Source of the DNA: a virus
Taxonomy: Duplodnaviria > Heunggongvirae > Uroviricota > Caudoviricetes
IMG/VR virus record: IMGVR_UViG_3300029516_000004
Location: 31,480-95,479 of that record
Direction: 5' to 3' (one strand)
DNA: 64,000 bases
Shown: positions 5,200-20,650 of the stretch, piece by piece
How the letters are laid out: each line of letters opens with the position of its first letter
Position numbering within the stretch: the first letter of the stretch is position 1
Translations under genes and position numbers: made by a program
Notes under the pieces: generated by a model
What the model was told of the DNA's origin: nothing
Seen by the model: only the letters and a program-made list of their open reading frames with translations
Databases searched by the model: none

Positions 5200-5285
5200 T
5201 TATGCTTCCTTTCGTATAAAACTCTTTTTGACGCGAGGGTAACGAAAGTCACATGTCAAAAGGCCCGGAACGGGCAAGCAATCAA

Positions 5286-5738
5286 TCAGATACGTGCGGA
5301 TGTAGCATTACCGTAATGACGGTGCTGACGGGCCACCTTATTGAAAAGTTGACGCGCCATTACCCAAGGCTGGTGCTCCCGGCGTTCCTTTTCGTCCTGC
5401 GTCATATAGAGTTCGTTCTGGAGTTTTTCATCAAACCGGCGCGGAGCGCGGCTACGGCGAAAGAATTCAGGATTCAGAGAGTGGATCTGAAATCTACGTG
5501 GGCGTGTACTGTCATCAATCAAAACAGACGAATACTTAGACACAGCGATAGCCTTTAAGCGCAGATAAACATCGCGCTTATCGACATCCAGATGCGGGTA
5601 TTCCTTTTCAAGAATTGCTGCGAGTTCTTTCGCTGATAGAAGAGATTTAGTGCGGATCATGTAATCCGCAATCTCGTACGATGTTATTCGTGAGTGATTT
5701 ATTTCCATGAAGTGGCGTCCCTGCCAGTTAAGTAACAT
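5286..5738 (-). CDS. lpa: Lpa late promoter activator (150 aa)
   Basis: 150-aa ORF immediately upstream of pacA with operator-like site upstream; matches P1 gene 10 position and size. Confidence 0.7.
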   Translation of the reverse strand: MLLNWQGRHFMEINHSRITSYEIADYMIRTKSLLSAKELAAILEKEYPHLDVDKRDVYLRLKAIAVSKYSSVLIDDSTRPRRFQIHSLNPEFFRRSRAPRRFDEKLQNELYMTQDEKERREHQPWVMARQLFNKVARQHRHYGNATSARI

Positions 5739-5808
5739 CCTGTCACCTACTGATTAGCCCATGTCAACTAATCAACGTGGAATATAATACCCTCGATTAA
5801 AGAAATAG

Positions 5809-5825
5809 CAATACATTAGAGCAAT
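5809..5825. promoter_or_regulatory. C1 operator-like site upstream of lpa
   Basis: caATACATTAGAGCAAT, 14/17 to operator reverse complement. Confidence 0.5.
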
Positions 5826-5826
5826 T

Positions 5827-6870
5827 TTATCTAACGCTCAACGAGTGACTTGTGATAGCGCCGACTCCAAGCGCGTAATCAAAGAACAATCGTTGATGCA
5901 TCGCCAGCCTACCGTGCGTCTTCTCCCAATTATCGCGGTCACGCTCAATATCACGCTGGCATGACTGGCACAGAGGAATTGCGTAAATGTCATGCGCGCA
6001 TAATCGACTATGACGAACAATATAAGGCGTAATGTGAGCGCCAGCTCCCGCCGCTCCACACCCACAGCATGGACGGGAAGCAACAAAGTCCATGTACTCA
6101 GGTAATTTTAGCGATTGCAGTTTTGGTATTTTGAAATGCGCCATGCCAGGGTCGGAGTCAACATCCACAGGGCATACTTTTGCACGCATCGGCGCGGCGC
6201 GTTCTTCCATCATCTGAACATATGCTGTAGCGCGATCGTCATACGGGCGAATATCCGCCTCTTTCAGAGGTCCGCTATCCTGCGTTGCGGCTTTCATCTT
6301 ATTTATTGATATACGGCAAACTTCTTCCGGCATCAGGTGCATCATGTTGCGCATGAAAGCCCACCAGCACAGTTCCTGAATACTTAAATCATGGCCATCT
6401 GAAAGCCCCATTTCCTGACGGGCGACATCCAGTATCCAGTTAACGCGATTATTATGCAGCGTTTCTTTCAGCTCATTAAAACCACGCATCCGGTAATGGT
6501 TATCGTGATGCCAGCACAGCAACACCGCGCTATTGTCTCGTTCAGCGTGGACAATATGGTTGTCACACCAACTATGATCTGCGGCCTGGCATCGCCCCTC
6601 TTTCCTGCGCAACCACGCCACCAGCGCGTCAATTCCACCAATACGACGAAACAGCTCATCGCTGTTAAAAAACGGCTGCAACGCCTCATTTGTTGCCATG
6701 GTTTGCTCGGAAACAACGAGGCCGTCGTCCATGTGCTCGATTAACTCACGCGGCACCGGCTCCATAATAAATTTACGGCCAGCCTCCACCAGCTTTCTGA
6801 CCTCCTGATCCACTTTGAACGTGGCGAGGCCAAGCTCTTTCTGTACAAAGGGAGTAATTACGGCTTTCAC
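5827..6870 (-). CDS. hypothetical Cys/His-rich protein (347 aa), post-doc region
   Basis: ORF-track ORF; motifs CWHHDNH and [12 protein letters not shown]...CQSCQ suggest a metal-binding, possibly HNH-like, fold. Confidence 0.6.
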
Positions 6871-6897
6871 ATCACACCTTTAATCACTGATTGGGCT

Positions 6898-7098
6898 TTA
6901 TCTGCTGCCCGGCATTCTCTGTTTAAGCACAACCATTTCCTGACGGCATAACACAGCAATAGCGGTCCTGGCACCAATTTGCTTACCAACCAGGTATTGC
7001 TTTACCTTGCGGCGACTCACGCCATCAAGAAGCATCTTTAACGCTTCACGGGACAATTTGTTGTATTTGCGTGCCATTAATCTACTCCGCAGAACCAT
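6898..7098 (-). CDS. hypothetical small basic protein (66 aa)
   Basis: ORF immediately downstream of doc, overlapping its stop. Confidence 0.45.
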
Positions 7099-7462
7099 AC
7101 AATCTACGTAACGTGTCGGCGACAGAAGATACAGATATCTCGCCAGTCGCAGCGCCTACGGTAAGGTCTGCCAGTTCAGGTGAATCAAATACCTGCACCC
7201 CGTTACGGCGTAGAAATAGCAGCGCACTGTTTAGCGCGGTACGCTTATTGGCATCATTGAATATATGCCCTCTCGCTGTAGCCACCAGGTAGGTGGCGGA
7301 GACTTCGAAAAGGTCGGTGATCTCTTCGTAGGCAACTCTGGCCTGAACTCTCCCGATAATGGCCTCTGCCCTACCCGGATCTGACATTCCCGGCAGGCCG
7401 CCGTAGCGGTTTATATTCGCATCATGAAGCGCAATAAGTTCTTCCGGTGATATATGCCTCAT
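7082..7462 (-). CDS. doc: Doc toxin (Fic-fold kinase), 126 aa
   Basis: [43 protein letters not shown]... recognised as P1 Doc; start overlaps phd stop. Confidence 0.95.
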
Positions 7463-7683
7463 TATCGGTTAACCAGTTCCTTGTTGGTGGAGTCCAGGGT
7501 GTCAAACAGGGATGCAAATTCAGCATCCAGCGCCGCTTTTTTGTAGGCTTCGAAAGTAGCCTTGCTGACAATTACTGCTGGCTCACGGCCTCTGCGGGTG
7601 ATTTCAACCTCTTCCCCGGCCTCAACATTGTTGAGCACTTCAGAAAGGTTGCCGCGCGCGGTACGGAAGTTAATGGATTGCAT
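7462..7683 (-). CDS. phd: Phd antitoxin, 73 aa
   Basis: [73 protein letters not shown] recognised as P1 Phd. Confidence 0.95.
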
Positions 7684-7692
7684 AAATACCTC

Positions 7693-7720
7693 GTGTACTC
7701 GTTATGTGTACACAATTATA
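7693..7720 (-). promoter_or_regulatory. phd-doc promoter/operator with GTGTAC palindromes
   Basis: TATAAT (minus strand, 7715-7720) followed by TGTGTACACA and GTGTAC half-sites just upstream of phd RBS. Confidence 0.5.
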
Positions 7721-7859
7721 AACTTCACAGGCATAAAGCACCAGCACTTTGCGGCTTAACAAACCTCTAGGCAGGTCATTCGTAGCCTAATGTCCGAACT
7801 GCTAAAGCATCCAAGTTGCTGTAGAATCACCGCCAATTACATAAGCCTGAAATAAGTGG

Positions 7860-9422
7860 ATGAAAATGACAAGTATTCAACAACGTGCAGAGCTTCATCG
7901 TCAAATCTGGCAAATTGCTAACGATGTCAGGGGTTCGGTCGATGGATGGGATTTTAAGCAATACGTTCTGGGCGCACTTTTCTACCGTTTTATCAGCGAA
8001 AATTTTTCCAGCTATATTGAAGCCGGGGATGACAGTATCTGTTATGCGAAACTGGATGACAGCGTAATTACTGATGACATTAAAGACGATGCTATCAAAA
8101 CTAAAGGCTACTTCATCTACCCCAGTCAGCTTTTCTGCAACGTAGCGGCGAAAGCAAATACCAATGACAGACTGAATGCAGATTTAAACAGCATCTTCGT
8201 TGCTATCGAAAGTTCTGCTTACGGTTATCCTTCAGAAGCTGACATCAAAGGTTTGTTTGCTGATTTCGATACCACCAGTAACCGCCTGGGTAACACCGTT
8301 AAAGATAAAAATGCCCGCCTGGCTGCGGTTCTGAAAGGGGTTGAAGGGTTAAAACTTGGTGACTTCAACGAACATCAGATTGACCTGTTCGGTGATGCCT
8401 ATGAGTTCCTGATCTCTAACTATGCGGCAAATGCCGGTAAGTCAGGCGGCGAGTTCTTTACACCGCAGCACGTCTCTAAGCTGATTGCACAACTGGCTAT
8501 GCACGGGCAGACCCACGTTAACAAAATCTACGACCCGGCAGCAGGCTCCGGTTCGCTGTTGTTGCAGGCTAAAAAACAGTTTGATGACCATATCATCGAA
8601 GAAGGTTTTTTTGGTCAGGAAATCAACCATACGACCTATAACCTGGCGCGTATGAACATGTTTTTGCACAACATCAACTACGACAAGTTTGATATCAAGC
8701 TGGGCAATACGCTGACTGAACCGCACTTCAGAGATGAAAAACCGTTTGATGCCATCGTTTCTAACCCGCCGTATTCGGTGAAATGGATTGGCAGCGATGA
8801 CCCGACGCTGATTAACGATGAACGTTTTGCCCCGGCTGGCGTTCTGGCCCCCAAATCCAAAGCTGACTTTGCGTTTGTATTACATGCGCTGAACTATCTT
8901 TCTGCCAAAGGTCGTGCTGCGATTGTTTGCTTCCCGGGTATTTTTTACCGTGGCGGTGCGGAGCAGAAAATCCGTCAGTATCTGGTCGACAATAACTATG
9001 TCGAAACCGTGATTTCACTGGCACCGAATCTGTTCTTTGGCACCACCATTGCCGTCAATATTCTGGTGCTGTCTAAACATAAAACCGATACCAAAGTTCA
9101 GTTTATTGACGCCAGCGAACTATTCAAAAAAGAGACCAACAACAATATCCTGACCGATGCCCATATCGAACAGATTATGCAGGTATTTGCCAGCAAGGAA
9201 GATGTTGCTCATCTGGCGAAATCAGTCGCGTTTGAGACCGTTGTTGCTAATGACTATAACCTGTCGGTGAGCAGCTATGTTGAAGCGAAAGATACTCGCG
9301 AAATTATCGATATCGCTGAGTTGAATGCAGAGCTGAAAACCACGGTCAGCAAAATCGACCAGTTGCGTAAAGATATTGATGCAATTGTGGCTGAAATTGA
9401 AGGCTGCGAGGTGCAGAAATGA
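7860..9422 (+). CDS. hsdM: Type I R-M N6-adenine DNA methyltransferase HsdM (520 aa)
   Basis: Motif [12 protein letters not shown] and motif IV SNPPY; translationally coupled to hsdS (ATGA overlap). Confidence 0.95.
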
Positions 9423-10636
9423 GCGAGTTGAGTTATCTGGAAAAATTGATGGATGGGGTTGAAGTTGAGTGGTTGCCACTCTCAAAAGTATTCAACTTAA
9501 GGAATGGTTATACACCGTCTAAAACTAAAAAAGAATTTTGGGCGAATGGTGATATACCTTGGTTCAGAATGGATGACATACGTGAAAATGGTAGAATTCT
9601 AGGGAGTTCACTTCAAAAAATTTCATCCTGCGCCGTAAAAGGGGGGAAACTATTTCCTGAAAATTCAATATTAATATCAACGTCGGCAACAATTGGTGAG
9701 CATGCTTTAATCACTGTACCTCATCTAGCCAATCAAAGGTTTACATGTTTGGCTTTAAAAGAGTCTTATGCTGATTGCTTTGATATTAAATTTTTATTTT
9801 ACTACTGTTTTTCTTTAGCTGAGTGGTGCCGAAAAAACACAACGATGTCCAGTTTTGCGTCTGTTGATATGGATGGATTCAAAAAATTTTTAATCCCTCG
9901 CCCCTGCCCGGATAATCCGGAAAAATCCCTTGCCATCCAGTCTGAAATCGTGCGAATTCTGGACAAATTCAGCGCCCTTACTGCAGAGCTTACTGCAGAG
10001 CTTACTGCAGAGCTTAGCATGCGTAAAAAACAATACAACTACTATCGCGACCAGTTGTTGAGTTTTAAAGAGGATGAGGTTGAGGGTAAGAGGAAAACCT
10101 TAGGGGAAATTATGAAGATGCGTGCCGGACAACATATTTCGGCTCATAATATAATTGAAAGAAAAGAAGAGAGTTATATATATCCTTGTTTTGGAGGAAA
10201 TGGCATACGGGGTTACGTCAAAGAAAAAAGTCATGATGGAGAACATCTATTAATAGGGCGACAAGGAGCATTGTGTGGTAATGTTCAAAGAATGAAAGGC
10301 CAGTTCTATGCTACAGAACATGCTGTTGTAGTTTCAGTCATGCCCGGGATTAACATTGACTGGGCATTTCATATGTTAACGGCAATGAATCTAAACCAAT
10401 ATGCTTCAAAATCGGCACAACCGGGACTTGCTGTAGGGAAATTACAGGAATTGAAATTATTTGTCCCTTCAATAGAGAGACAAATATATATTGCCGCAAT
10501 ACTCGATAAATTCGACACTCTGACCAACTCCATCACCGAAGGTCTCCCGCGTGAAATCGAGTTACGCCAGAAACAGTACGAATATTATCGAGATATGCTA
10601 TTTAGTTTCCTGAAGCCGGAAGTAGCAGAGGCATGA
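9419..10636 (+). CDS. hsdS: Type I R-M specificity subunit HsdS, type IC-like (405 aa)
   Basis: Two AT-rich variable TRD-like halves separated by a conserved central region carrying [13 protein letters not shown]; conserved C-terminal repeat region. Confidence 0.92.
9977..10012 (+). repeat. 3 x 12-bp in-frame tandem repeat CTTACTGCAGAG encoding (LTAE)x3 in hsdS central spacer
   Basis: Perfect triplicate at 9977-9988, 9989-10000, 10001-10012, plus partial fourth unit. Confidence 0.95.
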
Positions 10637-10637
10637 C

Positions 10638-11828
10638 ATGGGCAAGACACTCTCGGAAATAGCTCAACAGCTTAGTACGCCTCAGAAAGTCAAGAAGACT
10701 GTCCATAAAGAAGTTGAAGCGACCAGGGCCGTGCCAAAGGTGCAGTTAATCTACGCTTTCAATGGCACGGGGAAAACGCGTCTTTCCCGGGATTTCAAGC
10801 AACTGCTTGAGTCCAAAGTTCATGACGGAGAAGGTGAAGACGAAGCTGAACAGTCCGCGTTGTCGCGCAAAAAAATCCTCTATTATAATGCCTTCACCGA
10901 GGACTTGTTCTATTGGGATAACGATCTGCAAGAAGACGCAGAACCGAAGCTGAAGGTGCAGCCTAACTCCTATACAAACTGGTTGCTGACCTTGCTAAAA
11001 GATTTGGGACAGGATAGCAATATCGTCCGTTATTTCCAGCGCTATGCGAACGACAAGCTAACGCCACACTTCAATCCAGATTTTACCGAAATCACTTTTT
11101 CCATGGAGCGCGGTAACGATGAGCGTTCCGCCCACATCAAGTTATCCAAAGGTGAAGAGAGCAACTTCATCTGGAGTGTGTTTTACACCCTACTGGATCA
11201 AGTGGTAACAATTCTCAATGTCGCTGACCCGGATGCGCGCGAGACCCACGCATTTGATCAACTGAAATATGTATTCATTGATGATCCCGTTAGCTCCCTT
11301 GATGATAACCACTTGATTGAACTGGCGGTTGATCTTGCAGGGCTGATCAAATCCAGCGAATCCGATTTGAAGTTCATTATCACGACACATAGTCCAATAT
11401 TTTATAATGTACTTTTCAATGAGTTGAACGGTAAAGTTTGCTACATGTTGGAAAGTTTTGAGGATGGTACATTTGCCCTCACAGAAAAATATGGCGACTC
11501 TAACAAGAGTTTTTCCTACCATCTCCACCTAAAGCAAACAATCGAACAGGCAATTGCTGACAACAACGTTGAAAGATATCATTTCACGTTACTGCGCAAT
11601 CTTTATGAGAAAACGGCCAGCTTTCTGGGCTACCCTAAATGGTCTGAACTCTTGCCTGACGACAAGCAGCTTTATCTGAGCAGAATCATCAATTTCACAA
11701 GCCACAGCACGCTATCGAATGAGGCCGTTGCAGAGCCAACGCCAGCGGAGAAAGCGACTGTCAAACTGTTGCTCGATCACTTGAAGAACAACTGTGGCTT
11801 CTGGCAGCAGGAACAAAAAAATGGTTGA
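10638..11828 (+). CDS. prrC: PrrC-type anticodon nuclease (396 aa) embedded in hsd locus
   Basis: N-terminal Walker A FNGTGKTR; C-terminal R-x3-E (LRNLYEKT) with His 36 residues later, falling at positions 320/324/356; gene order hsdM-hsdS-prrC-hsdR. Confidence 0.85.
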
Positions 11829-14800
11829 TTGCACCAAACCAATTGCTGAGTCCAATAATTTTATCATTTTGGACAAATACAACCCGGACTGGAAGATTAC
11901 CGAGAGCTACCAGAGCGAAGGTGATCTGGAGCGTGAGCTGATTCAGGATTTGGTTAACCAGGGCTATGAATACCTGCCAACCCTGAACAACACCAAGGCT
12001 ATGCTCGCTAATGTCAGGGAACAGTTGCAAAACCTTAACAATGTAGAGTTCCTGGAGGCTGAATGGCGTCGCTTTGTGGAAACCTGGATGGACAAGCCCA
12101 GCGATGGCGTTGTTGAAAAGGCCCGCAAGATTCATGATGATTATGTTCATGATTTCGTCTTCGACGATGGCCGTATTCAGAATATCTATCTGCTGGATAG
12201 AAAAAACATCCTTCGCAATAAAGTGCAGGTCATCAAGCAGTTTGAACAAGCAGGCACGCACGCCAATCGCTACGATGTCACCATTCTGGTCAATGGCCTG
12301 CCGCTGGTACAAATTGAATTGAAAAAACGTGGTGTAGCGATTCGTGAGGCTTTCAACCAGATACATCGTTACAGTAAAGAGAGTTTTAACAGCGAAAATT
12401 CCCTGTTTAAGTATCTGCAGCTGTTCGTCATTTCCAACGGCACTGATACCCGTTATTTTGCCAACACCACAAAGCGCGATAAAAACAGTTTTGACTTCAC
12501 CATGAACTGGGCTAAATCAGACAATACACTGATTAAAGACCTCAAAGACTTTACCGCTACCTTTTTCCAGAAACATACTCTGCTTAATGTTCTGGTGAAC
12601 TACAGCGTTTTTGACAGCAGTCAGACGCTACTGGTAATGCGACCGTACCAGATTGCCGCCACCGAGCGCATTCTGTGGAAAATTAAGAGTTCCTTTACAG
12701 CGAAGAACTGGTCAAAACCGGAAAGCGGTGGGTATATCTGGCACACTACCGGTTCTGGTAAAACCCTCACCAGCTTTAAAGCCGCGCGTCTGGCAACAGA
12801 ACTGGACTTTATTGATAAAGTTTTCTTTGTGGTCGACAGGAAAGACCTCGATTACCAGACCATGAAGGAATATCAGCGTTTTTCGCCAGACAGCGTCAAC
12901 GGCTCGGAAAATACCGCAGGCCTTAAACGAAATCTGGATAAGGACGATAACAAAATTATCGTCACTACTATTCAGAAACTCAATAACCTGATGAAAGCAG
13001 AAAGCGACCTGCCTGTATATAATCAGCAAGTGGTGTTTATATTTGATGAATGCCACCGCAGCCAGTTTGGAGAAGCGCAGAAAAACCTGAAGAAGAAATT
13101 CAAACGCTATTATCAGTTTGGTTTTACCGGCACCCCTATTTTCCCGGAAAACGCCTTAGGCTCAGAAACAACCGCCAGCGTATTTGGTCGTGAATTGCAT
13201 TCGTATGTAATTACCGATGCGATTCGTGACGAAAAAGTGCTCAAATTCAAGGTGGACTACAACGATGTGCGGCCACAGTTTAAGTCTTTAGAGACAGAAA
13301 CTGACGAGAAAAAACTGAGTGCGGCTGAAAATCAGCAGGCGTTTCTTCATCCCATGCGTATTCAGGAAATCACGCAATATATTCTGAATAATTTCCGCCA
13401 GAAAACCCACCGTACCTTCCCTGGCTCAAAAGGTTTTAATGCTATGTTGGCAGTGAGCAGCGTGGATGCCGCGAAAGCCTATTATGCGACGTTTAAACGG
13501 TTACAAGAAGAAGCCGCTAATAAATCGGCTACCTATAAACCGCTGCGTATTGCGACAATCTTCTCCTTTGCCGCCAATGAAGAACAAAATGCCATTGGTG
13601 AAATTTCCGATGAAACTTTTGATACCAGCGCAATGGACAGCAGTGCTAAAGAGTTTCTGGACGCTGCAATTCGTGAATATAACAGCCATTTTAAAACTAA
13701 CTTTAGCACCGACAGTAACGGTTTTCAGAACTACTATCGTGATTTAGCCCAGCGGGTTAAAAATCAGGATATCGATCTGCTAATTGTCGTGGGGATGTTT
13801 TTAACCGGTTTCGATGCTCCAACATTAAACACGCTATTCGTCGATAAAAACTTGCGTTTTCACGGCCTGATGCAGGCATTCTCCCGCACCAACCGCATTT
13901 ATGACGCGACTAAAACCTTCGGTAATATTGTCACGTTCCGAGATCTGGAACGCTCAACCATTGATGCCATAACGCTGTTTGGTGACAAAAATACCAAAAA
14001 TGTGGTTTTAGAAAAGAGTTATGCAGAGTATATGGAAGGCTTTACTGATGCTGCCACTGGTGAAGCTAAGCGCGGCTTTATGGCAGTAGTTTCAGAACTG
14101 GAACAACGGTTCCCTGACCCTACCAGTATTGAAAGTGAAAAAGAGAAGAAAGACTTCGTTAAACTGTTTGGTGAATACCTGCGTGCCGAGAACATCCTGC
14201 AAAACTATGATGAATTTGCCACGCTGAAAGCCCTGCAACAAATCGATCTTAGCGATCCTGTTGCGGTAGAAAAATTCAAAGAAGAACATTATGTGGATGA
14301 TGAAAAGTTCGCTGAATTGCAAACGATTCGTCTCCCTGCTGAACGCAAGATTCAGGATTATCGTTCTGCCTATAACGATATTCGTGACTGGCAGCGCCGC
14401 GAGAAAGAAGCTGATAAAAAAGAAAAATCAACCACTGACTGGGATGACGTGGTTTTTGAGGTCGATTTGCTGAAGTCTCAGGAAATAAACCTGGATTATA
14501 TCCTTGGACTGATTTTCGAACACAACAGACAAAATAAAGGCAAGGGCGAAATGATCGAAGAGGTCAAACGCTTAATTCGTTCAAGCCTGGGGAACCGGGC
14601 GAAAGAGGGCCTGGTGGTCGATTTTATTCAGCAAACGAACCTGGATGATTTACCAGACAAAGCCAGTATCATTGAGGCATTCTTTACGTTTGCTCAACGC
14701 GAACAGCAACGTGAAGCAGAAGCATTGATAAAAGAAGAAAATCTCAATGAAGATGCAGCAAAACGCTATATTCGCACGTCTTTAAAACGCGAATACGCCA

Positions 14801-14940
14801 CCGAAAATGGCACAGAATTAAACGAAACATTACCAAAACTTAGTCCGTTGAATCCGCAATATAAAACGAAAAAACAGGCAGTTTTCCAGAAAATCGTCTC
14901 GTTTATTGAGAAGTTTAAAGGCGTAGGCGGAAAAATATAG
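11821..14940 (+). CDS. hsdR: Type I R-M restriction endonuclease/translocase HsdR
   Basis: PD-(D/E)xK-like D..ELK ([18 protein letters not shown]), helicase motif I HTTGSGKT, motif II DECH; ORF-track start 11794 lacks RBS, ATG at 11821 has AGGAAC RBS. Confidence 0.93.
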
Positions 14941-14956
14941 CCCAATTCGTGTTTTT

Positions 14957-14984
14957 CTTGCGGGTTCTTAATTAAACCCGCAAG
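14957..14984. other. 10-bp-stem hairpin downstream of hsdR
   Basis: CTTGCGGGTT-cttaatta-AACCCGCAAG perfect inverted repeat; no U-tract on either strand. Confidence 0.4.
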
Positions 14985-15019
14985 AGCTCGTGGGGTTCCA
15001 AATGGCTAATATACTCCCC

Positions 15020-15106
15020 TTACCCATGCGCGACGATGCCGCCAAAAGTGATAGAGAACAGCCAGAAATAGATCGCGGCCATAATGATTTTGAATGCCGT
15101 GTTCAT
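15020..15106 (-). CDS. candidate small hydrophobic peptide (28 aa)
   Basis: Manual translation MNTAFKIIMAAIYFWLFSITFGGIVAHG; AGGAG RBS 7 nt upstream; below ORF-track size cut-off; downstream of a C1 operator. Confidence 0.3.
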   Translation of the reverse strand: MNTAFKIIMAAIYFWLFSITFGGIVAHG

Positions 15107-15134
15107 ATTTTCAGCTCCTGTGATTGATTGGATA

Positions 15135-15165
15135 CATGCCGCGCCTTGCGGCATGTTTTTATTTT
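15135..15165 (+). terminator. rho-independent terminator ending the hsd operon
   Basis: CATGCCGC-gcctt-GCGGCATG 8-bp stem followed by TTTTTATTTT. Confidence 0.65.
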
Positions 15166-15188
15166 CACTTCCCCTGCCTTAAAAATCT

Positions 15189-15205
15189 ATATTTATTAGA
15201 GCAAT
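15189..15205. promoter_or_regulatory. C1 operator 17-mer at the distal edge of the hsd island
   Basis: ATATTTATTAGAGCAAT (16/17, reverse orientation); candidate -35 TTCATC and -10 TAAATA overlap on minus strand. Confidence 0.65.
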
Positions 15206-15711
15206 TATTGTTGATGAAGAAGCGCATTTTCATACTCCCTGACCATTAATGTAAGTACGCCGTGACTCCTGAAAACACGCGCCACTTCAATCTTATCTTC
15301 CAGCGCGAACGCAATTTTACTTAGACCAATTTTCTTCAGGAGATCAATCTTTGCTGGACCGTCATTTCTGTCATCGGTGGCAGGACGCATAGATAGCAAA
15401 GGCTCCGCCCCATTTGTTACGTGCTTACGCAACCAGGCTCGTGTTTTATCCCTGGCTATCTCACAGCGCCCGGTTACAAACCAGAGGGTGTAAATGCCGG
15501 ACAACTGGCGCACCATATCAATAACTGGAGTGATGGGAGCATCAGTGTCACAGGCAAGGTTAAACTCGTTCCAGTGCTCTGTTAATGCACCTTTGCCAGG
15601 TGGTGGAAGTAAATGCAGCCTGTCTTCCGTTGCCTCTGATATCGTCCCATCAATATCTACTATGACGATGTACGGACGTTCCTGGTGTGCGTGTTTATTG
15701 AAAATACTCAA
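15205..15711 (-). CDS. HAD-superfamily phosphatase-like protein (168 aa)
   Basis: N-terminal VIVDIDGTIS (DxDGT catalytic motif of HAD phosphatases, as in polynucleotide 3'-phosphatases). Confidence 0.7.
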   Translation of the reverse strand: MSIFNKHAHQERPYIVIVDIDGTISEATEDRLHLLPPPGKGALTEHWNEFNLACDTDAPITPVIDMVRQLSGIYTLWFVTGRCEIARDKTRAWLRKHVTNGAEPLLSMRPATDDRNDGPAKIDLLKKIGLSKIAFALEDKIEVARVFRSHGVLTLMVREYENALLHQQ

Positions 15712-15783
15712 ATGCCCTCCTCATTGGACGAAAAAAATGCTGGTGGGAGCACTCCACCAGCATTAAAAGTGACACTGTAACTA

Positions 15784-17046
15784 TCAGCGAACGTAAATAG
15801 TGCCGCCGTTCTCTTTTTCCCATGCATCGCTACGTGCATAGCAAACATCGAGAAGTCTTCTTGCCGCAGTTTCCTCTAAACCCAATTCGACAACCAACTG
15901 CTCATGACGGCGGGTAACCACATCAAACAGGGTATGCAGCCCTTTAGTTGCCAGATCATCAATGAATTCCGGTTCGAACGGCAGCTCTGCATCTGCCAAC
16001 ATAACCTCTTGCGCCCACTCAACTCGACGGACCAATTCCGGGCGACGGCTTTCCATCTCTTTACAGATCAATTCATGGAAGAACTCTACCCAACCTTCCG
16101 GCTGGAACTCGCGGAAAATTGCCAACGGCTGGAAGTTTGGCATCAACCATTCGTTGATTCGGATATCAATGGCATAGCCCATGTCGCAGCAGAACTGATA
16201 AGCAAAGTCCAGCTTAGAAACGATATAAGGACGCTCGTTATTGAACTCTTTAGGCGATGAGATCCCATAAGCCAGGAGGCGCGGGAAGAAGGAGATTTGC
16301 CCTAACGTCGGATGAAGTTTGCTTGCAGGGAAACGGCGCTCAGTAATGCCATACATTTCCTTCTTGAGCGTCGCAAATTTGGCATTCTCATTAACCAGCG
16401 CGGTAACCTCTGCTTTTTTATTAGCAAATGCCACGCGCGCCTCGCTTGCATCTTTAATAGTTTTTTTGAGCTGTTGGTTAAGGTCGGCGACCTGCTTACG
16501 CAGTTCCTGTCGCTCGCTTTTAGCTTTGTTATAGCGTTTCTCAAGGTTAAAAGGATCAAGTTTCATGATCTCTTTATATTGAGATTTTAGCGTTGAAATC
16601 TGTGAGTTCCGCAGTTCAACCATCGCAGTCATTTCATTGAGTTTTGTTTCCAGCTCAATGCTTATACGTTCGGCATTATCAGCACGCTGGTTGGCGTCAT
16701 GCGTCGCATCGTCGATCGCGTCCTGTTGCTGGCGTTTCAAATGTTCAATTTCCAGCTGAAGCTCTTCAATTTCTTTACCCTTCAGACCGAGATCCAACTG
16801 CATATTTTCAGCTGCATCTACCAGGGAGTTATGGCTATCAGCTTCTGCGTTATAAACATCAATAAGCTGTGCGTGAAGCATCTCCGCTGACTGAACCGCA
16901 TTATCAAAAAAACGTGCTGTGAGGTCATCACAACTAACGCGGCGTTGCGCGGCCCGGATGTTCTGGATAATGGCCGGGATACCGGCATTCAGGACATCAG
17001 GGATACATACATTTTCGATTGATTGGTTTTGTGCTGAAGTGCTCAT
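15784..17046 (-). CDS. hypothetical protein with long coiled-coil segment (420 aa)
   Basis: ORF-track ORF; heptad-rich central region (ELQLEIEHLKRQQQ...). Confidence 0.6.
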   Translation of the reverse strand: MSTSAQNQSIENVCIPDVLNAGIPAIIQNIRAAQRRVSCDDLTARFFDNAVQSAEMLHAQLIDVYNAEADSHNSLVDAAENMQLDLGLKGKEIEELQLEIEHLKRQQQDAIDDATHDANQRADNAERISIELETKLNEMTAMVELRNSQISTLKSQYKEIMKLDPFNLEKRYNKAKSERQELRKQVADLNQQLKKTIKDASEARVAFANKKAEVTALVNENAKFATLKKEMYGITERRFPASKLHPTLGQISFFPRLLAYGISSPKEFNNERPYIVSKLDFAYQFCCDMGYAIDIRINEWLMPNFQPLAIFREFQPEGWVEFFHELICKEMESRRPELVRRVEWAQEVMLADAELPFEPEFIDDLATKGLHTLFDVVTRRHEQLVVELGLEETAARRLLDVCYARSDAWEKENGGTIYVR

Positions 17047-17047
17047 T

Positions 17048-17266
17048 TCAAAGTTCCGTATTAGCTTGTGCTTCGGTCATTTTTCCTAAGTATGAAGGAG
17101 GAAGGACTACGCAATTTGTATCCAGTCCCTCACCTATGGCAGCCTGTAAAATTCTGGCTAAGGTGAGTCTCTTGTTGCGATACCTGGTGATGACATGCCT
17201 GATACCGCCGGTCGGCGTAACAAAGGCGATCAGCCAGTAGTGATATTTCCGTCGGAATGGCCACAT
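17048..17266 (-). CDS. hypothetical protein (72 aa)
   Basis: ORF abutting the downstream gene; preceded by operator/terminator module. Confidence 0.45.
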   Translation of the reverse strand: MWPFRRKYHYWLIAFVTPTGGIRHVITRYRNKRLTLARILQAAIGEGLDTNCVVLPPSYLGKMTEAQANTEL

Positions 17267-17280
17267 AGTGCACCTTGTAG

Positions 17281-17346
17281 ATTGCTCTAATAAAAAACGT
17301 GATGAGTGTACATCACGTTTTAAAAATATGGAATTATTAGAGCAAT
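17281..17346. promoter_or_regulatory. two inverted C1 operator-like 17-mers flanking a bidirectional terminator hairpin
   Basis: ATTGCTCTAATAAAAAA (17281-17297), hairpin ACGTGATG-agtgta-CATCACGT with flanking A/T runs, then GGAATTATTAGAGCAAT (17330-17346). Confidence 0.6.
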
Positions 17347-17347
17347 A

Positions 17348-18049
17348 TTATTCTGATTCTCGCTCAAAAAATGAGCTGATAAGGGGAAGCCAATCCTCTG
17401 ACACTTCGCGAGGTCGCGGTTTGCCGTGGAAAAAGATTATTCGGCAGTCTTTTGGTAATGCCCCATTCCCCCTGGAGTAACGCGCGCTCGCATATTTTGA
17501 ACCAGGTTCCACAACATCGGCCTTGTAACTTACAAACCATCCTGGATACAGATCCTGAAATGCTGGTGTATCATCGCCCATAACCTTTCGTAAGAACCCC
17601 TGGTCCCCCCAGCACTCAGTAGTGACACAACGAGAAATCCAACCTTCCGGATCTTGCCAGAATGAACTCCAGATATGCGCTTTAACACTATTTGGTATCC
17701 ACAGGGCACCGCTGCCACGATATTGTGGATGGTAAAAATCCCTAAGCATGGTGAAGCTGGTTGGTGGATGCTCTAGGATTGGGCGTATATCACCGGCAAT
17801 AACCGTGTCCAAATCCAGATAGAACAGATCATCGGTTATATCCGGTCGGAACAACTCGATTTTCGCCCACCAGCCACGGCACTTTTGCCACTGGTTGATC
17901 AATGGGACAACTTTGACGCCAGGTACATGTAAACGCTTCAGGTCTGTCAGGCAAATAATTTCATAGCCTTTTGGCAGTTGATTAACCAGCCACTGCACAT
18001 CGGAAGCGTTATAGTCACCACCAGAGCGAAAAACTAAAGCAATCTTCAT
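17348..18049 (-). CDS. hypothetical protein (233 aa)
   Basis: ORF-track ORF, stop overlaps downstream start of the phosphatase operon. Confidence 0.6.
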
Positions 18050-18738
18050 GCTGCACCATCACCTTTCACTTTCATCAATGTCAGGTTTCCGCAAAATACG
18101 GCACCAGTGTCGATATACTGCTGATTCCAGAATGTCTTCGGGCTTTTCACCGGAGTGTGACCAAAGATAAAACGATCTGCGCCCGAAATTTCGCCACCAA
18201 TATCATCCATCGAATCACTGATACGCTCGCGCGCCCAGACAACGTTGAAAAGCGGCACCTCCTTACCGAATTGGTATTCATTATCCGGATAGTCGGCATG
18301 GGCTATAACGATAGTTTCTTGCCCGGTGTTCAACTCAATGATATAGGGCAGACGCTTTACCAGCTCCACCAGCGCCCAGGCTAATATTTCCTGATCAGTG
18401 TCCAGCATGAAGAACCATTGTCCGCCATTCATTAGCCAGTTATTCACGTTGCCATCTGGACTTAACGCATCAATCATCAGCCGCTCATGGTTCCCCATCA
18501 CTGCCCTGAACCAGGGCATCTGCAATAGTTCCAGACATTCGACATTTTCAGTACCGCGATCGATAAGGTCGCCGACCGATATCAGTAAATCCTGCGCCGG
18601 GTCAAAATCCACACGATGGAGTTCGGACATCAGTCTGGTGTAACAACCATGCAGATCACCAACAACCCAGATATTCCTGTATTTGGTACCGTCGATACGG
18701 TGATAAATTGTTGGTGCCATCATGTATTCTTCAGCCAT
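18046..18738 (-). CDS. ppp: Ser/Thr protein phosphatase, lambda-PPase-like metallophosphatase (230 aa)
   Basis: GDLHG, GDLIDRG and GNHE metallophosphatase motifs. Confidence 0.85.
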
Positions 18739-19346
18739 TCTTTAAGAGTCATCTGCGGAATACCTCCCATTTTCCCGCATGAAACAACGTCAATCTGTTC
18801 ACGCGCAGACTGGAATAACAAAGGCAGGTGACTTAGATTTTTTGGCGTGCCGCCGGAGTGAACGCGTGGTTCTTGCGTAGCGTCAACGCCCACCAGGGCG
18901 ACATGTTTGAATCCGATATGGAAAGCCAGGTTCAGAGCACCATATGCACTATTGCCGCTGGCAATTTCATTCTCATCTTCGCAAAGTCCGAAATGTGCGG
19001 ACCAGCGCCACGCCCACCACTCGGGAGAATTCGTATTTTTTGGCTCCATGCCACGTTCAGCCACACGACGGAAGCACAGAACGCCGTCTCTGACTTCACG
19101 TTCTTTAACATCGGGTAGTGCCATGCAATAACAAACACCACGGCGACGGCGGCCACGACCAACGCGCCGCATATTGTCTGGCGATGGATCAAGTGTGAAA
19201 AAATAAGAAGCGCGGTTCAGCCAGTCGATGGCCCCATTGACCGCTATAATCGGCACTCCGCGCGGCGCAACAAAGTTTGCGGCGCTTGGGCCACTGCCGA
19301 CGATAATAACGCGATCACTGCCTCTAAATTTATTCTTGGGAAACAT
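18720..19346 (-). CDS. hypothetical protein, paralog A with GSGPS motif (208 aa)
   Basis: VIIVGSGPS...IIAVNGAID...VALVGVD; paralogous to the upstream ORF. Confidence 0.6.
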
Positions 19347-19906
19347 TGAATTGCACTGCTCCTACTTGCATTCAAAATATGTAAATCTGCGTGTTTTTTG
19401 CGGGTATCCAAGAACTGCTGTTGCCATTTTGAAATAGACACCTGCGTTGGATTCCGTAGGGCTTGAGGGTGCGCACCATGCCAATGAAGGCCGTTTTGCA
19501 GAGAACAGTCATAGCCGACTAATACCACTACTTCAGCCCCTGATTCAGCAGCCAGACTGATAGCCTGCGCGCCGCTATTTACCCCTTCCGCCGGTCCACA
19601 ATATCGCCTGTACTCCAACGAAAATGATTTCGCCGCCGCTAGGTTGGCTGTCACTTTGCGGAATCTCCCTCCCGGTATGGTGGAGCCGTATTGCTTCCAC
19701 CATGACAAATCACCGGCGTATAAGGCATAAATGTCATCGAACATCTGCCAGGAATTGTTAACCGCGATGATTGAACAGCCAGTTTTTTCTATAGCAGCAC
19801 AGTCCTCACGAGTGAGTGACGGACCGCTACCGACACAAAAAACAGTCCTAGTCGCCCTGGGTGGTATGTTCATTCTCAGCTGCAAATTCAGCCTCCAGGC
19901 GAGCAT
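19244..19906 (-). CDS. hypothetical protein, paralog B with GSGPS motif (220 aa)
   Basis: VFCVGSGPS...IIAVNNSWQ...VVLVGYD; overlaps the downstream paralog by 103 nt. Confidence 0.6.
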   Translation of the reverse strand: MLAWRLNLQLRMNIPPRATRTVFCVGSGPSLTREDCAAIEKTGCSIIAVNNSWQMFDDIYALYAGDLSWWKQYGSTIPGGRFRKVTANLAAAKSFSLEYRRYCGPAEGVNSGAQAISLAAESGAEVVVLVGYDCSLQNGLHWHGAHPQALRNPTQVSISKWQQQFLDTRKKHADLHILNASRSSAIQCFPRINLEAVIALLSSAVAQAPQTLLRRAECRL

Positions 19907-20069
19907 TCATTTCAGCGATTACAGGGTCCACTACAGCATCTGTTTCCTGTTCATTACGCGGCATGATCGATGCCAGCGATTCATAATTAGCCTTGGATGA
20001 CACGATTATTCTCCCGATGTTAATGTGCGCTATATCAAATGGCGCATATGTACTAATTAATTTATTATT

Positions 20070-20648
20070 TTAAGCAGCATACAACCACTTGTCGCCGTTC
20101 AATACATGCTCAATAGCCTCACCCTTTTTAAGGCTCATGTATTCCAGGATGGCGGTTATCGCTTGTTCTGCACCATACGCAAGAACGACGTAGTAACCTT
20201 CCTCTCTAAGCCTGCGCATCCAGGCGATCTGCTCTTGCGTCGGGGCTTTACCATTTGGTTCTTTAAGCTCAATTCGCATGCCGTGATAAATACCGCATGC
20301 TTTATCGAGACTCATGTCCGGATAACCTTTTTTCTGCCCTTCAGCCTTCATTTTCCCGGCGGTTGCTTTTGAACGTTTCCCTCCGTTAGGCGTTGCATGC
20401 AACAGCTCATAGATGTCAGGGTGCTTGCGTTCGAAGTAATCAAAAATGAAAACCTGCTCGAAGTGCTCGCAATTTCCGTCGCGCAGGTCTGGGTTCTTTG
20501 CCAGTGCTGCAAGTGCCTTCGCATGTGGAGAAACTTCTTTTACCGGCGCAAGCGATAAGAATGGATCCTTTTTGGTTTTTGGCCTGGACCGCCCCTTATT
20601 TCGACGCTCACTAAAAGCCTGAAACTCTTCCTCAGTAAAGCGCAACAT
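20070..20648 (-). CDS. VRR-NUC / PD-(D/E)xK-like nuclease domain protein (192 aa)
   Basis: GYPDMSL...GMRIELK pattern typical of VRR-NUC domains. Confidence 0.6.
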   Translation of the reverse strand: MLRFTEEEFQAFSERRNKGRSRPKTKKDPFLSLAPVKEVSPHAKALAALAKNPDLRDGNCEHFEQVFIFDYFERKHPDIYELLHATPNGGKRSKATAGKMKAEGQKKGYPDMSLDKACGIYHGMRIELKEPNGKAPTQEQIAWMRRLREEGYYVVLAYGAEQAITAILEYMSLKKGEAIEHVLNGDKWLYAA

Positions 20649-20650
20649 AA

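What the first reader, a model, noticed from the sequence alone, without database searches (positions are those of the whole stretch)
15205..15711. HAD-family phosphatase gene immediately flanking the anticodon-nuclease island
The 168-aa product starts with VIVDIDGTIS, the DxDGT catalytic signature of HAD phosphatases, which include the 3'-phosphatase domain of T4 polynucleotide kinase that heals PrrC-cleaved tRNA. Its stop overlaps the C1 operator, so it belongs to the backbone operon, yet it sits next to a locus whose damage such an enzyme could repair. Whether this is coincidence or functional coupling is open.
Basis: inference. Interest (0 to 1): 0.35.

Follow-up and report, generated by a model that had tools for sequence, protein, structure and literature searches.

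The report
Phage P1 pap phosphatase gene
This is the long-known, non-essential pap gene of phage P1, a stand-alone relative of the T4 polynucleotide kinase 3'-phosphatase domain; it sits beside the PrrC anticodon-nuclease island only because that island was dropped into a known cargo hotspot next to it.

Summary
The ORF at 15205..15711 (-) is real and is as described: 168 aa, TTG start, DIDGT motif, and a stop that overlaps a C1 operator by one base. It is the pap gene of phage P1, 95% identical in protein to P1 Pap.

Pap scores above threshold on Pfam HAD_PNKP. A family profile hits Pnkp1 and the T4 Pnkp phosphatase domain at E 1e-28 to 1e-22. An AlphaFold model (pLDDT 93) has the T4 Pnkp phosphatase as its best PDB match. 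The catalytic residues are conserved.

Functional coupling to PrrC is not supported.
- pap is found in 657 of 5426 complete E. coli genomes and 655 plasmid records. prrC is found in 6 genomes and 8 plasmids.
- Where checked (one chromosomal prr locus and one of three Klebsiella plasmids), pap is absent.
- The hsd-prrC cassette replaces pmgT..humD at the same junctions that the P1 record notes for the EcoDXXI and R124 hsd loci (Tyndall 1997).
- The window has no polynucleotide kinase or Rnl1-type RNA ligase, so Pap alone cannot reseal PrrC cuts.
- pap lies in a C1-repressed lytic operon.

The adjacency is therefore incidental and the gene is already known. Its biochemical substrate is still untested.

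The parts
15205..15711 (-). pap coding sequence (168 aa, TTG start, TAA stop): a stand-alone Pnkp-type HAD phosphatase
   Evidence: ORF list. 97-99% nucleotide identity to pap of P1, P7, SJ46 and RCS47. P1 annotation. Pfam HAD_PNKP. AF2 model and Foldseek.
15715..15722 (-). Shine-Dalgarno sequence GAGGAGGG for pap
   Evidence: Read directly from the sequence. Identical in P1.
15736..15764 (-). Terminator-like hairpin (11-bp stem followed by a T run) between pmgS and pap. If it is functional, pap would be expressed by read-through.
   Evidence: Consensus scan. Conserved in P1 apart from one loop base. Function not tested.
15189..15205 (-). C1 operator Op88/OpmgT, sharing one base with the pap stop codon
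   Evidence: Operator search. P1 annotation of OpmgT.
15784..17046 (-). pmgS, the upstream gene of the same operon
   Evidence: PHROG 1660 PmgS-like.
17281..17346 (.). C1 operators Op86b (17281..17297, +) and Op86a (17330..17346, -), which control PpmgR, the promoter of the pmgR-pmgS(-pap) operon
   Evidence: Operator search. The positions match the P1 annotation after the offset of 9015 bases.
7760..15015 (+). Type IC hsd-prrC cargo island (hsdM 7860..9422, hsdS 9419..10636, prrC 10638..11828, hsdR about 11821..14940), which replaces P1 pmgT..humD
   Evidence: Pfam. PADLOC PrrC and REase_I. Junctions found by BLAST against P1. The same junction coordinates are noted in the P1 record for the EcoDXXI and R124 hsd flanks.
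7082..7683 (-). doc (7082..7462) and phd (7462..7683), the P1 backbone genes on the other side of the island
   Evidence: Pfam Fic/DOC and PhdYeFM. 98% identity to P1.
15020..15154 (-). Conserved 44-aa hydrophobic ORF between the operator and the island junction
   Evidence: ORF list. Annotated in phi456 and, as 'membrane protein', in SJ46.

Best explanation
The ORF is pap, a backbone gene of P1-like phage-plasmids. It encodes a cytoplasmic, stand-alone DxDxT (HAD) acyl-phosphatase homologous over its whole length to the 3'-phosphatase domain of T4 polynucleotide kinase-phosphatase.

Inferred mechanism, by homology:
- Asp19 attacks a terminal phosphomonoester to form an aspartyl-phosphate.
- Asp21 acts as general acid-base.
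- Thr80 and Lys121 hold the phosphate.
- Asp139 (with Glu138) binds Mg2+.

The most likely substrates are 3'-phosphate (or 2',3'-cyclic phosphate) ends of nucleic acids, or 3'-nucleotides, during lytic growth. A stand-alone 3'-phosphatase suffices for DNA-end clean-up or nucleotide salvage, but not for RNA resealing. The gene is an accessory, non-essential function, transcribed from the C1-repressed PpmgR operon.

Its position next to prrC is incidental. The interval between pap/Op88 and phd-doc is a recombination hotspot where the type IC hsd cassette, here the prrC-bearing version, replaces pmgT..humD.

Shown here: gene identity, family, fold, conserved catalytic residues, distribution independent of prrC, island junctions, and absence of a kinase or Rnl1-type ligase in the window. 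Inferred: the substrate, and expression only in the lytic cycle.
For: Identity
- 97-99% nucleotide identity over pmgS-pap to 19 P1-group phage records.
- 160 of 168 residues identical to P1 Pap, with no change at a catalytic position.

Family
- Pfam HAD_PNKP, E 3e-11, above cut-off.
- PHROG 415 and 505, 'polynucleotide kinase'.
- A profile of 60 homologues hits Pnkp1 (4xrp) at 2.8e-28 and the T4 Pnkp phosphatase (5uj0, 1ltq) at about 1e-23, end to end (T4 residues 158-301).
- AF2 pLDDT 93. The 14 best Foldseek PDB matches are all T4 Pnkp or Pnkp1.

Catalytic residues
- D19, D21, T23, R31, R82, K121 and D139 are invariant or nearly so in the family.
- They align with T4 D165, D167, T169, R176, R213, K258 and D278. 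The roles of those T4 residues are given in PMC3592404.

Independence from prrC
- pap is in 655 PLSDB plasmids and 657 of 5426 complete E. coli genomes.
- prrC is in 8 plasmids and 6 genomes.
- The hsdR-pap junction is in 249 plasmids.
- Among 29 P1-like IMG/VR loci, 12 carry pmgT, 8 carry hsd without prrC, 9 carry other cargo and none carries prrC.
- The one chromosomal prr locus and the one Klebsiella plasmid prr locus examined have no pap.

Junctions
- 7759/7760 and 15015/15016 correspond to P1 87969 and 84482. These are the coordinates that the P1 record marks as homologous to the flanks of the EcoDXXI and R124 hsd loci. Tyndall et al. 1997 is cited in PMC12707154.

Other
- No kinase or Rnl1-type ligase in the window.
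- Non-essential by CRISPRi in P1 (PMC10695390).
- C1 operators Op86a/b lie upstream of pmgR.
Against: - No biochemical assay of Pap or of any stand-alone member was found in the held literature, so the substrate is inferred from homology only.
- The family has a roughly 14-residue insertion after motif I, with a conserved Trp, that T4 Pnkp and Pnkp1 lack. However, kinase-fused relatives also carry it.
- Contexts in other phages (a dNMP-kinase-like gene, a dATP/dGTP pyrophosphohydrolase, nrdB, and one fusion) point as much to free nucleotides as to polynucleotide ends.
- A terminator-like hairpin precedes pap, so its expression level and operon membership are not proven here.
- The window covers only about two thirds of a P1-sized genome, so the rest was not scanned for a kinase or ligase.
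Confidence: 0.8

Rival explanations
1. Functional coupling. Pap heals the 2',3'-cyclic phosphate ends left by PrrC on tRNA-Lys, either as self-immunity or a safety valve for the prrC-carrying phage-plasmid, or as P1's counter-defence on prr+ hosts.
For: - Pap is a true homologue of the T4 Pnkp phosphatase domain, which removes RNA 2',3'-cyclic phosphates in the anti-PrrC pathway (PMC3592404).
- It lies 264 bp from hsdR of the prr locus.
Against: - pap is about 100 times more frequent than prrC and is present in nearly all P1 relatives without it.
- The prr loci examined elsewhere lack pap.
- No 5'-kinase or Rnl1-type ligase is present in the window.
- The host ligase RtcB strictly needs a 3'-phosphate (PMC3592404). 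Removing the phosphate would leave 3'-OH/5'-OH ends that neither pathway can seal.
- pap is behind C1-repressed promoters, whereas PrrC must act in the lysogen (inference).
- Pap in this window has no special substitutions relative to P1 Pap.
Confidence: 0.04
2. Pap is a (deoxy)nucleotide phosphatase acting on free mononucleotides (3'-dNMP, or 5'-dNMP produced by nucleases and pyrophosphohydrolases) to remodel or salvage nucleotide pools, rather than acting on polynucleotide ends.
For: - In 21 T1-like/Webervirus-type loci the homologue lies between a DNA-repair exonuclease gene (PHROG 704) and a P-loop gene matching PHROG 139, 'deoxynucleoside monophosphate kinase'.
- In 8 loci it lies between an endonuclease VII/exonuclease pair and a dATP/dGTP pyrophosphohydrolase gene.
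- P0092 is a fusion of HAD_PNKP with dGTP_diPhyd_N.
- In a Krischvirus genome a stand-alone copy follows nrdB, although a full-length pseT and rnlA are also present.
- T4 Pnkp itself hydrolyses 3'-TMP (PMC3592404).
Against: - P1 pap has no nucleotide-metabolism neighbours.
- The closest fused relatives are kinase-phosphatase proteins with the Pnkp architecture, and when fused they sit next to an RNA ligase gene.
- Many of the supporting loci are closely related phages, so the counts are not independent events.
- The 190-aa P-loop neighbour could itself be a separate polynucleotide kinase.
Confidence: 0.25
3. Pap is a non-specific class B/C acid phosphatase, as in the original 2004 annotation ('putative P1 acid phosphatase').
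For:
- Weak Pfam Acid_phosphat_B match, E 0.09.
- AphA and P4 appear among the lower Foldseek and profile hits.
Against: - Acid_phosphat_B scores 12.7 bits against a cut-off of 27.
- Profile hits to acid phosphatases are at 2e-4 or worse, against 1e-28 to 1e-22 for the Pnkp phosphatases.
- The N-terminus (MSIFNKHAHQERPY) is hydrophilic and shows no signal peptide or lipobox, unlike the secreted class B/C enzymes (sequence inspection plus established knowledge).
Confidence: 0.03

Closest known systems
Pap (gp094) of Escherichia phage P1 (NC_005856) and its orthologues in P7, SJ46, RCS47 and P1-like plasmids
   Same: - Same gene: 160 of 168 residues identical.
- Same synteny: pmgR-pmgS-pap-Op88.
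- Same TTG start and same one-base overlap between stop and operator.
   Different: What lies downstream differs. P1 has pmgT..humD, and this window has the hsdMS-prrC-hsdR cassette.
3'-phosphatase domain (aa 148-301) of T4 polynucleotide kinase-phosphatase (PDB 1ltq, 2ia5, 5uj0)
   Same: - Same fold (Foldseek E 2.9e-8, TM 0.77 normalised to the target).
- Same DxDxT, S/T-G-R, Lys and acidic-pair motifs.
   Different: - About 20% identity.
- No fused 5'-kinase domain.
- A roughly 14-residue insertion with a conserved Trp after motif I.
- Glu in place of T4 Asp277, and Lys in place of Arg279.
- No partner RNA ligase in the window.
Pnkp1 of the Capnocytophaga gingivalis Pnkp1/Rnl/Hen1 RNA repair complex (PDB 4xrp, 4xru)
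   Same: It is the best profile hit in the PDB (E 2.8e-28) and is a HAD phosphatase domain of the same sub-family.
   Different: Pnkp1 has an N-terminal kinase and works in a complex with a ligase and a methyltransferase. Pap is a single domain with no such partners nearby.
Stand-alone DNA 3'-phosphatases of eukaryotes, such as S. cerevisiae Tpp1 (recalled from memory, not tested here)
   Same: They set a precedent: a PNKP-type HAD phosphatase without a kinase suffices for healing DNA 3' ends.
Type IC hsd loci flanked by P1 DNA (EcoR124, EcoDXXI, EcoprrI; Tyndall et al. 1997, Mol Microbiol 23:729, cited in PMC12707154)
   Same: The island junctions in this window coincide with the P1 coordinates annotated as homologous to the sequences upstream and downstream of the EcoDXXI and R124 hsd loci.
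   Different: Here the cassette sits in an apparently intact P1-type backbone rather than in a conjugative plasmid or the chromosome.

Membership tests
Pnkp-type HAD phosphatase (Pfam PF25109 HAD_PNKP; DxDxT acylphosphatase) | Motif I DxDxT, with the nucleophile Asp and the acid-base Asp | tested here: met
   D19-I-D21-G-T23. All three positions are invariant in 60 homologues and align to T4 D165, D167 and T169.
Pnkp-type HAD phosphatase (Pfam PF25109 HAD_PNKP; DxDxT acylphosphatase) | Motif II Ser/Thr followed by Gly-Arg (T4 S211, R213), and the motif III Lys (T4 K258) | tested here: met
   T80-G81-R82 and K121. G81 and R82 are at least 90% conserved and K121 is invariant.
Pnkp-type HAD phosphatase (Pfam PF25109 HAD_PNKP; DxDxT acylphosphatase) | Motif IV acidic pair that binds Mg2+ (T4 D277-D278) | tested here: met
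   E138-D139. D139 is invariant. Glu at the first position is the consensus of the Pap-like family, and Asp occurs in a minority of members.
Pnkp-type HAD phosphatase (Pfam PF25109 HAD_PNKP; DxDxT acylphosphatase) | Score above the curated family threshold, and the same fold | tested here: met
   44.1 bits against a cut-off of 27.6. AF2 pLDDT 93. The top Foldseek hits are the T4 Pnkp phosphatase and Pnkp1.
Pnkp-type HAD phosphatase (Pfam PF25109 HAD_PNKP; DxDxT acylphosphatase) | Mg2+-dependent hydrolysis of 3'-phosphate or 2',3'-cyclic phosphate ends of polynucleotides | not testable with these tools
   This needs an enzyme assay. No published assay of Pap was found.
T4-type tRNA heal-and-seal repair pathway (Pnkp + Rnl1) that counters PrrC | A 5'-OH polynucleotide kinase (P-loop) domain, fused or encoded alongside | tested here: not met
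   Pap is a single domain of 168 aa. An HMM of the kinase domains of fused relatives finds nothing among 511 ORFs of the window.
T4-type tRNA heal-and-seal repair pathway (Pnkp + Rnl1) that counters PrrC | A partner RNA ligase | tested here: not met
   A search with an Rnl1-type ligase query finds nothing in the window. Only an Rnl1-type query was used, and only these 64 kb were searched. In contrast, the two kinase-fused viral loci have a ligase gene adjacent.
T4-type tRNA heal-and-seal repair pathway (Pnkp + Rnl1) that counters PrrC | Genetic association with anticodon-nuclease loci | tested here: not met
   pap is in 657 E. coli genomes and prrC in 6. In plasmids the counts are 655 against 8. 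None of 29 P1-like viral loci has prrC. The prr loci examined outside P1 lack pap.
Class B/C non-specific acid phosphatase (the original annotation of pap) | Match to the family model above threshold, and a secretion signal | tested here: not met
   Acid_phosphat_B scores 12.7 bits against a cut-off of 27. By inspection the N-terminus is hydrophilic, with no signal peptide.
Punavirus (P1-like) backbone gene pap | Orthology and synteny: pmgS upstream and Op88 at the stop codon | tested here: met

The most novel reading that the evidence does not exclude
Pap is an RNA-end-modifying enzyme with a role in the defence/counter-defence contest. By stripping 2',3'-cyclic or 3'-phosphates from RNAs cut by anticodon nucleases or toxin RNases, it would destroy the only substrate of the host ligase RtcB. 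That would make such damage irreversible once P1 enters lytic growth, or, with an unknown kinase and ligase, allow repair. Under this reading its constant position at the edge of the P1 defence-cargo hotspot would not be neutral.
Probability: 0.05. Interest if true: 0.5.

Novelty: already known. Interest (0 to 1): 0.12.

Why it matters
It matters little for discovery. The gene, its HAD/3'-phosphatase annotation, the placement of type IC hsd cassettes between P1 phd-doc and pap, and the presence of PrrC on P1-like phage-plasmids are all already on record.

The useful outcome is negative. The tempting story of a repair enzyme parked next to the nuclease whose damage it repairs is a coincidence of a cargo hotspot.

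One modest point is still open. The large family of stand-alone Pnkp-type phosphatases in phages (about 3000 clusters at 50% identity) has no member with a tested substrate, and the gene contexts split between DNA-end processing and nucleotide metabolism.

Tried and rejected
- A single-sequence PDB search gave only a weak Pnkp1 hit (E 0.036) plus spurious hits to designed TIM barrels. The family profile was needed.
- NCBIfam has no model for the protein, and PADLOC has none either.
- The word-indexed homologue search returned only close relatives, so the exhaustive HMMER search was used instead.
- The P1 genome paper (PMC523184) is not held. Gonzales et al. 2022 does not discuss pap.
- I considered whether the 14-residue insertion marks a capped, small-molecule-specific subfamily. 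I rejected it as a discriminator because kinase-fused proteins with the Pnkp architecture carry it too.
- I considered that Pap in prrC-bearing elements might be a specialised allele. I rejected this because it differs from P1 Pap at 8 non-catalytic positions and is 98% identical to RCS47 Pap.
- The pairwise alignment to T4 misplaces R176. The profile alignment was used for that residue.

Full report
**Observation**

The ORF list gives a 168-aa ORF at 15205..15711 on the minus strand, with a TTG start and the N-terminus MSIFNKHAHQERPYIVIVDIDGTIS. A GAGGAGGG ribosome-binding site lies three bases upstream of the start. The stop codon TAA (15205..15207) shares its last base with a C1 operator at 15189..15205, which has one mismatch to ATTGCTCTAATAAATTT. 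There are 14 operator-like sites in the window against 0.36 expected by chance.

**What the window is**

Megablast of 14900..17100 finds 19 records of P1-group phages (P1, P7, SJ46, RCS47, phi456 and others) at 97-99% identity. In all of them the ORF is annotated pap, under one of three products: 'putative P1 acid phosphatase', '3'-phosphatase', or '3'-phosphatase, 5'-polynucleotide kinase'.

The P1 reference record has the same 507-nt CDS. It shows pap ending at 84293, where operator OpmgT (formerly Op88) begins. It shows the operon pmgR-pmgS-pap lying downstream of PpmgR, which is controlled by operators Op86a and Op86b. Those operators are present in the window at 17330..17346 and 17281..17297. 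The window's Pap differs from P1 Pap at 8 of 168 residues, none of them catalytic.

**The island**

BLAST of the window against P1 shows 98% identity over two stretches: 5247..7759 (lpa to phd) and 15016..22000 (pap onward). The 7.3 kb in between replaces P1 pmgT-pmgU-pmgV-upfMNO-hot-lxr-humD.

The insert encodes:
- HsdM, 7860..9422;
- HsdS, 9419..10636;
- a 396-aa PrrC, 10638..11828 (PADLOC PrrC E 6e-148; Pfam AAA_13);
- an EcoR124-type HsdR, ending at 14940.

This is the classical prr arrangement (PMC12707154).

The two junctions correspond to P1 coordinates 87969 and 84482. The P1 record itself flags those coordinates as the limits of homology to the sequences upstream and downstream of the EcoDXXI hsd locus and downstream of R124 hsdR. 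That observation was published by Tyndall et al. in 1997 (reference 364 of PMC12707154). PrrC on P1-like phage-plasmids has also been reported (bioRxiv 10.1101/2025.09.12.675607 and PMC11652158).

**What Pap is**

The sequence evidence places Pap in the Pnkp-type phosphatase family.
- Pfam assigns it to HAD_PNKP (PF25109) at 44.1 bits, with a cut-off of 27.6. Acid_phosphat_B reaches only 12.7 bits against a cut-off of 27.
- PHROGs places it in families 415 and 505, both labelled 'polynucleotide kinase'. In family 505 it matches the C-terminal half of a 295-position profile.
- An exhaustive HMMER search finds 2961 cluster representatives at E <= 1e-3. Most are 140-200 aa. A minority are about 300 aa with the domain at the C-terminus. 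Five of the seven examined of that size carry an N-terminal AAA_33 kinase domain, which is the Pnkp architecture.
- A profile of 60 homologues hits Pnkp1 (4xrp) at 2.8e-28 and the T4 Pnkp phosphatase (5uj0, 1ltq) at about 1e-23, over the whole domain. The next hits, acid phosphatases and other HAD enzymes, are at 2e-4 or worse.

The structural evidence agrees. An AlphaFold2 model built with that alignment has mean pLDDT 93. Its 14 best Foldseek matches in the PDB are all T4 Pnkp or Pnkp1. The best is 5uj0, with E 2.9e-8 and TM 0.77 normalised to the target.

The catalytic residues are in place. The invariant or nearly invariant family residues D19, D21, T23, R31, G81-R82, R109, D113, K121, D139 and R148 include the equivalents of these T4 residues:

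| T4 residue | Role | Pap equivalent |
|---|---|---|
| Asp165 | nucleophile | D19 |
| Asp167 | general acid-base | D21 |
| Ser211, Lys258 | phosphate contacts | T80, K121 |
| Asp278 | Mg2+ ligand | D139 |

The T4 roles are taken from PMC3592404 and the alignments.

The family has a roughly 14-residue insertion after motif I, with a conserved Trp, that T4 and Pnkp1 lack. Kinase-fused relatives have it too, so it does not separate stand-alone from fused enzymes.

**Is Pap coupled to PrrC?**

Four lines of evidence say it is not.

1. Distribution.
   - pap occurs in 655 PLSDB plasmids and in 657 of 5426 complete E. coli genomes.
   - prrC occurs in 8 plasmids, 4 of them E. coli plasmids of P1-like size (93-116 kb), and in 6 genomes, 4 of them on the chromosome.
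   - The hsdR-pap junction occurs in 249 plasmids, so almost all hsd cassettes at this site lack prrC.
   - Of 29 P1-like IMG/VR loci, 12 have pmgT next to pap, 8 have hsdR without prrC, 9 have other cargo and none has prrC.
   - SJ46 shows a third kind of cargo at the site.
   - Conversely, the chromosomal prr locus examined (1 of 4) and the Klebsiella plasmid prr locus examined (1 of 3) contain no pap, at either the DNA or the protein level.

2. Pathway logic.
   - T4 needs phosphatase, 5'-kinase and Rnl1 together. The window encodes no Pnk-type kinase and no Rnl1-type ligase.
   - The host ligase RtcB strictly requires a 3'-phosphate (PMC3592404). A lone phosphatase would therefore produce 3'-OH/5'-OH ends that cannot be sealed.

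3. Timing (inference). pap lies behind C1-repressed promoters, whereas hsd-prrC must be active in the lysogen.

4. Allele. The Pap encoded here is an ordinary one.

The adjacency is a by-product of a cargo hotspot bounded by pap/Op88 and phd-doc.

**Most likely function**

By homology, Pap is a Mg2+-dependent aspartyl-phosphate phosphatase. The substrate is not established.

For polynucleotide 3' ends:
- the nearest multidomain relatives are kinase-phosphatases;
- in viral contigs the two fused examples sit beside an RNA ligase gene;
- a stand-alone 3'-phosphatase is sufficient for healing DNA ends (the precedent of yeast Tpp1 is recalled from memory).

For free nucleotides:
- of 49 stand-alone viral loci, 48 have no kinase or Rnl1-type ligase within 6 kb;
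- in 21 loci the gene lies between an exonuclease gene and a gene resembling a dNMP kinase;
- in 8 loci it lies next to a dATP/dGTP pyrophosphohydrolase gene;
- one protein fuses the two domains;
- in a Krischvirus genome a stand-alone copy follows nrdB, although a full pseT and rnlA are also present.

These counts include many closely related phages, so they are not independent events.

In P1, pap is dispensable for plaque formation by CRISPRi (PMC10695390). It is co-regulated with pmgS in RNA-seq (bioRxiv 10.64898/2025.12.28.696737).

I therefore commit to this reading: Pap is an accessory 3'-phosphoesterase of the lytic cycle that acts on nucleic-acid 3' ends or 3'-nucleotides. I am confident about identity, family and the lack of coupling (about 0.8-0.9). 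I am only moderately confident about polynucleotide versus mononucleotide substrate (about 0.55 against 0.25).

**Novelty and score**

Everything structural about this finding is already on record: the gene, its annotation, the hotspot, and PrrC on P1-like elements. Biochemical characterisation of Pap is lacking, but that is a general gap and not a property of this window. Interest is low.

Noticed in passing
window 15020..15154 (-): A 44-aa ORF with a hydrophobic core (FKIIMAAIYFWLFSITFGGIV) is the first reading frame after the Op88-controlled PpmgT promoters. It is annotated in phi456 and, as 'membrane protein', in SJ46, but not in the P1 reference. The island junction (15015/15016) lies four bases after its stop, so it is retained in this hsd-prrC element, in phi456 (hsd type) and in SJ46 (other cargo).
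   Followed up: partly
window 15134..15156 (+) and 15736..15764 (-): There are two strong terminator-like hairpins. The one on the plus strand lies inside P1-derived DNA and is placed to stop the incoming hsdR transcript. The one on the minus strand lies between pmgS and pap and is conserved in P1, which would imply that pap is expressed by read-through.
   Followed up: partly
window 18046..18738 (-): ppp encodes a homologue of lambda Ser/Thr phosphatase (64% identical according to the P1 record). [quoted passage not shown] This C1-controlled block therefore holds homologues of both known kinds of RNA-end-healing phosphatase module, 2.3 kb apart.
   Followed up: no
window 15161..15205 (-) reading into 14940 and below: With pmgT replaced, the C1-controlled promoters P1pmgT and P2pmgT now point through the small ORF and then antisense into the 3' end of hsdR. 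On induction this could give convergent transcription against the restriction gene.
   Followed up: no
L049 4856..7082, L056 4227..6794, protein P0092, L005 2883..4516: Stand-alone Pap-like genes in other phages are embedded in DNA and nucleotide-metabolism modules. These include an exonuclease plus a dNMP-kinase-like P-loop gene, endonuclease VII plus a dATP/dGTP pyrophosphohydrolase, and nrdB. One protein fuses HAD_PNKP to dGTP_diPhyd_N. The family has about 3000 clusters at 50% identity, and no member with a tested substrate was found.
   Followed up: partly
L002 (phage phi456) 8807..16041 compared with window 7860..14940: phi456 carries the type IC hsd cassette at the same site, but with different hsdS-region content and no match to the window's prrC (BLAST gap over window 9480..12089). 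Both the specificity region and the presence of prrC therefore vary within the cassette.
   Followed up: partly
window 11794..11828: The mechanical hsdR ORF starts at a GTG at 11794. Annotated homologues are 1039 aa long and overlap prrC by 8 nt, so the likely start is the ATG at 11821. prrC and hsdR are probably translationally coupled.
   Followed up: no
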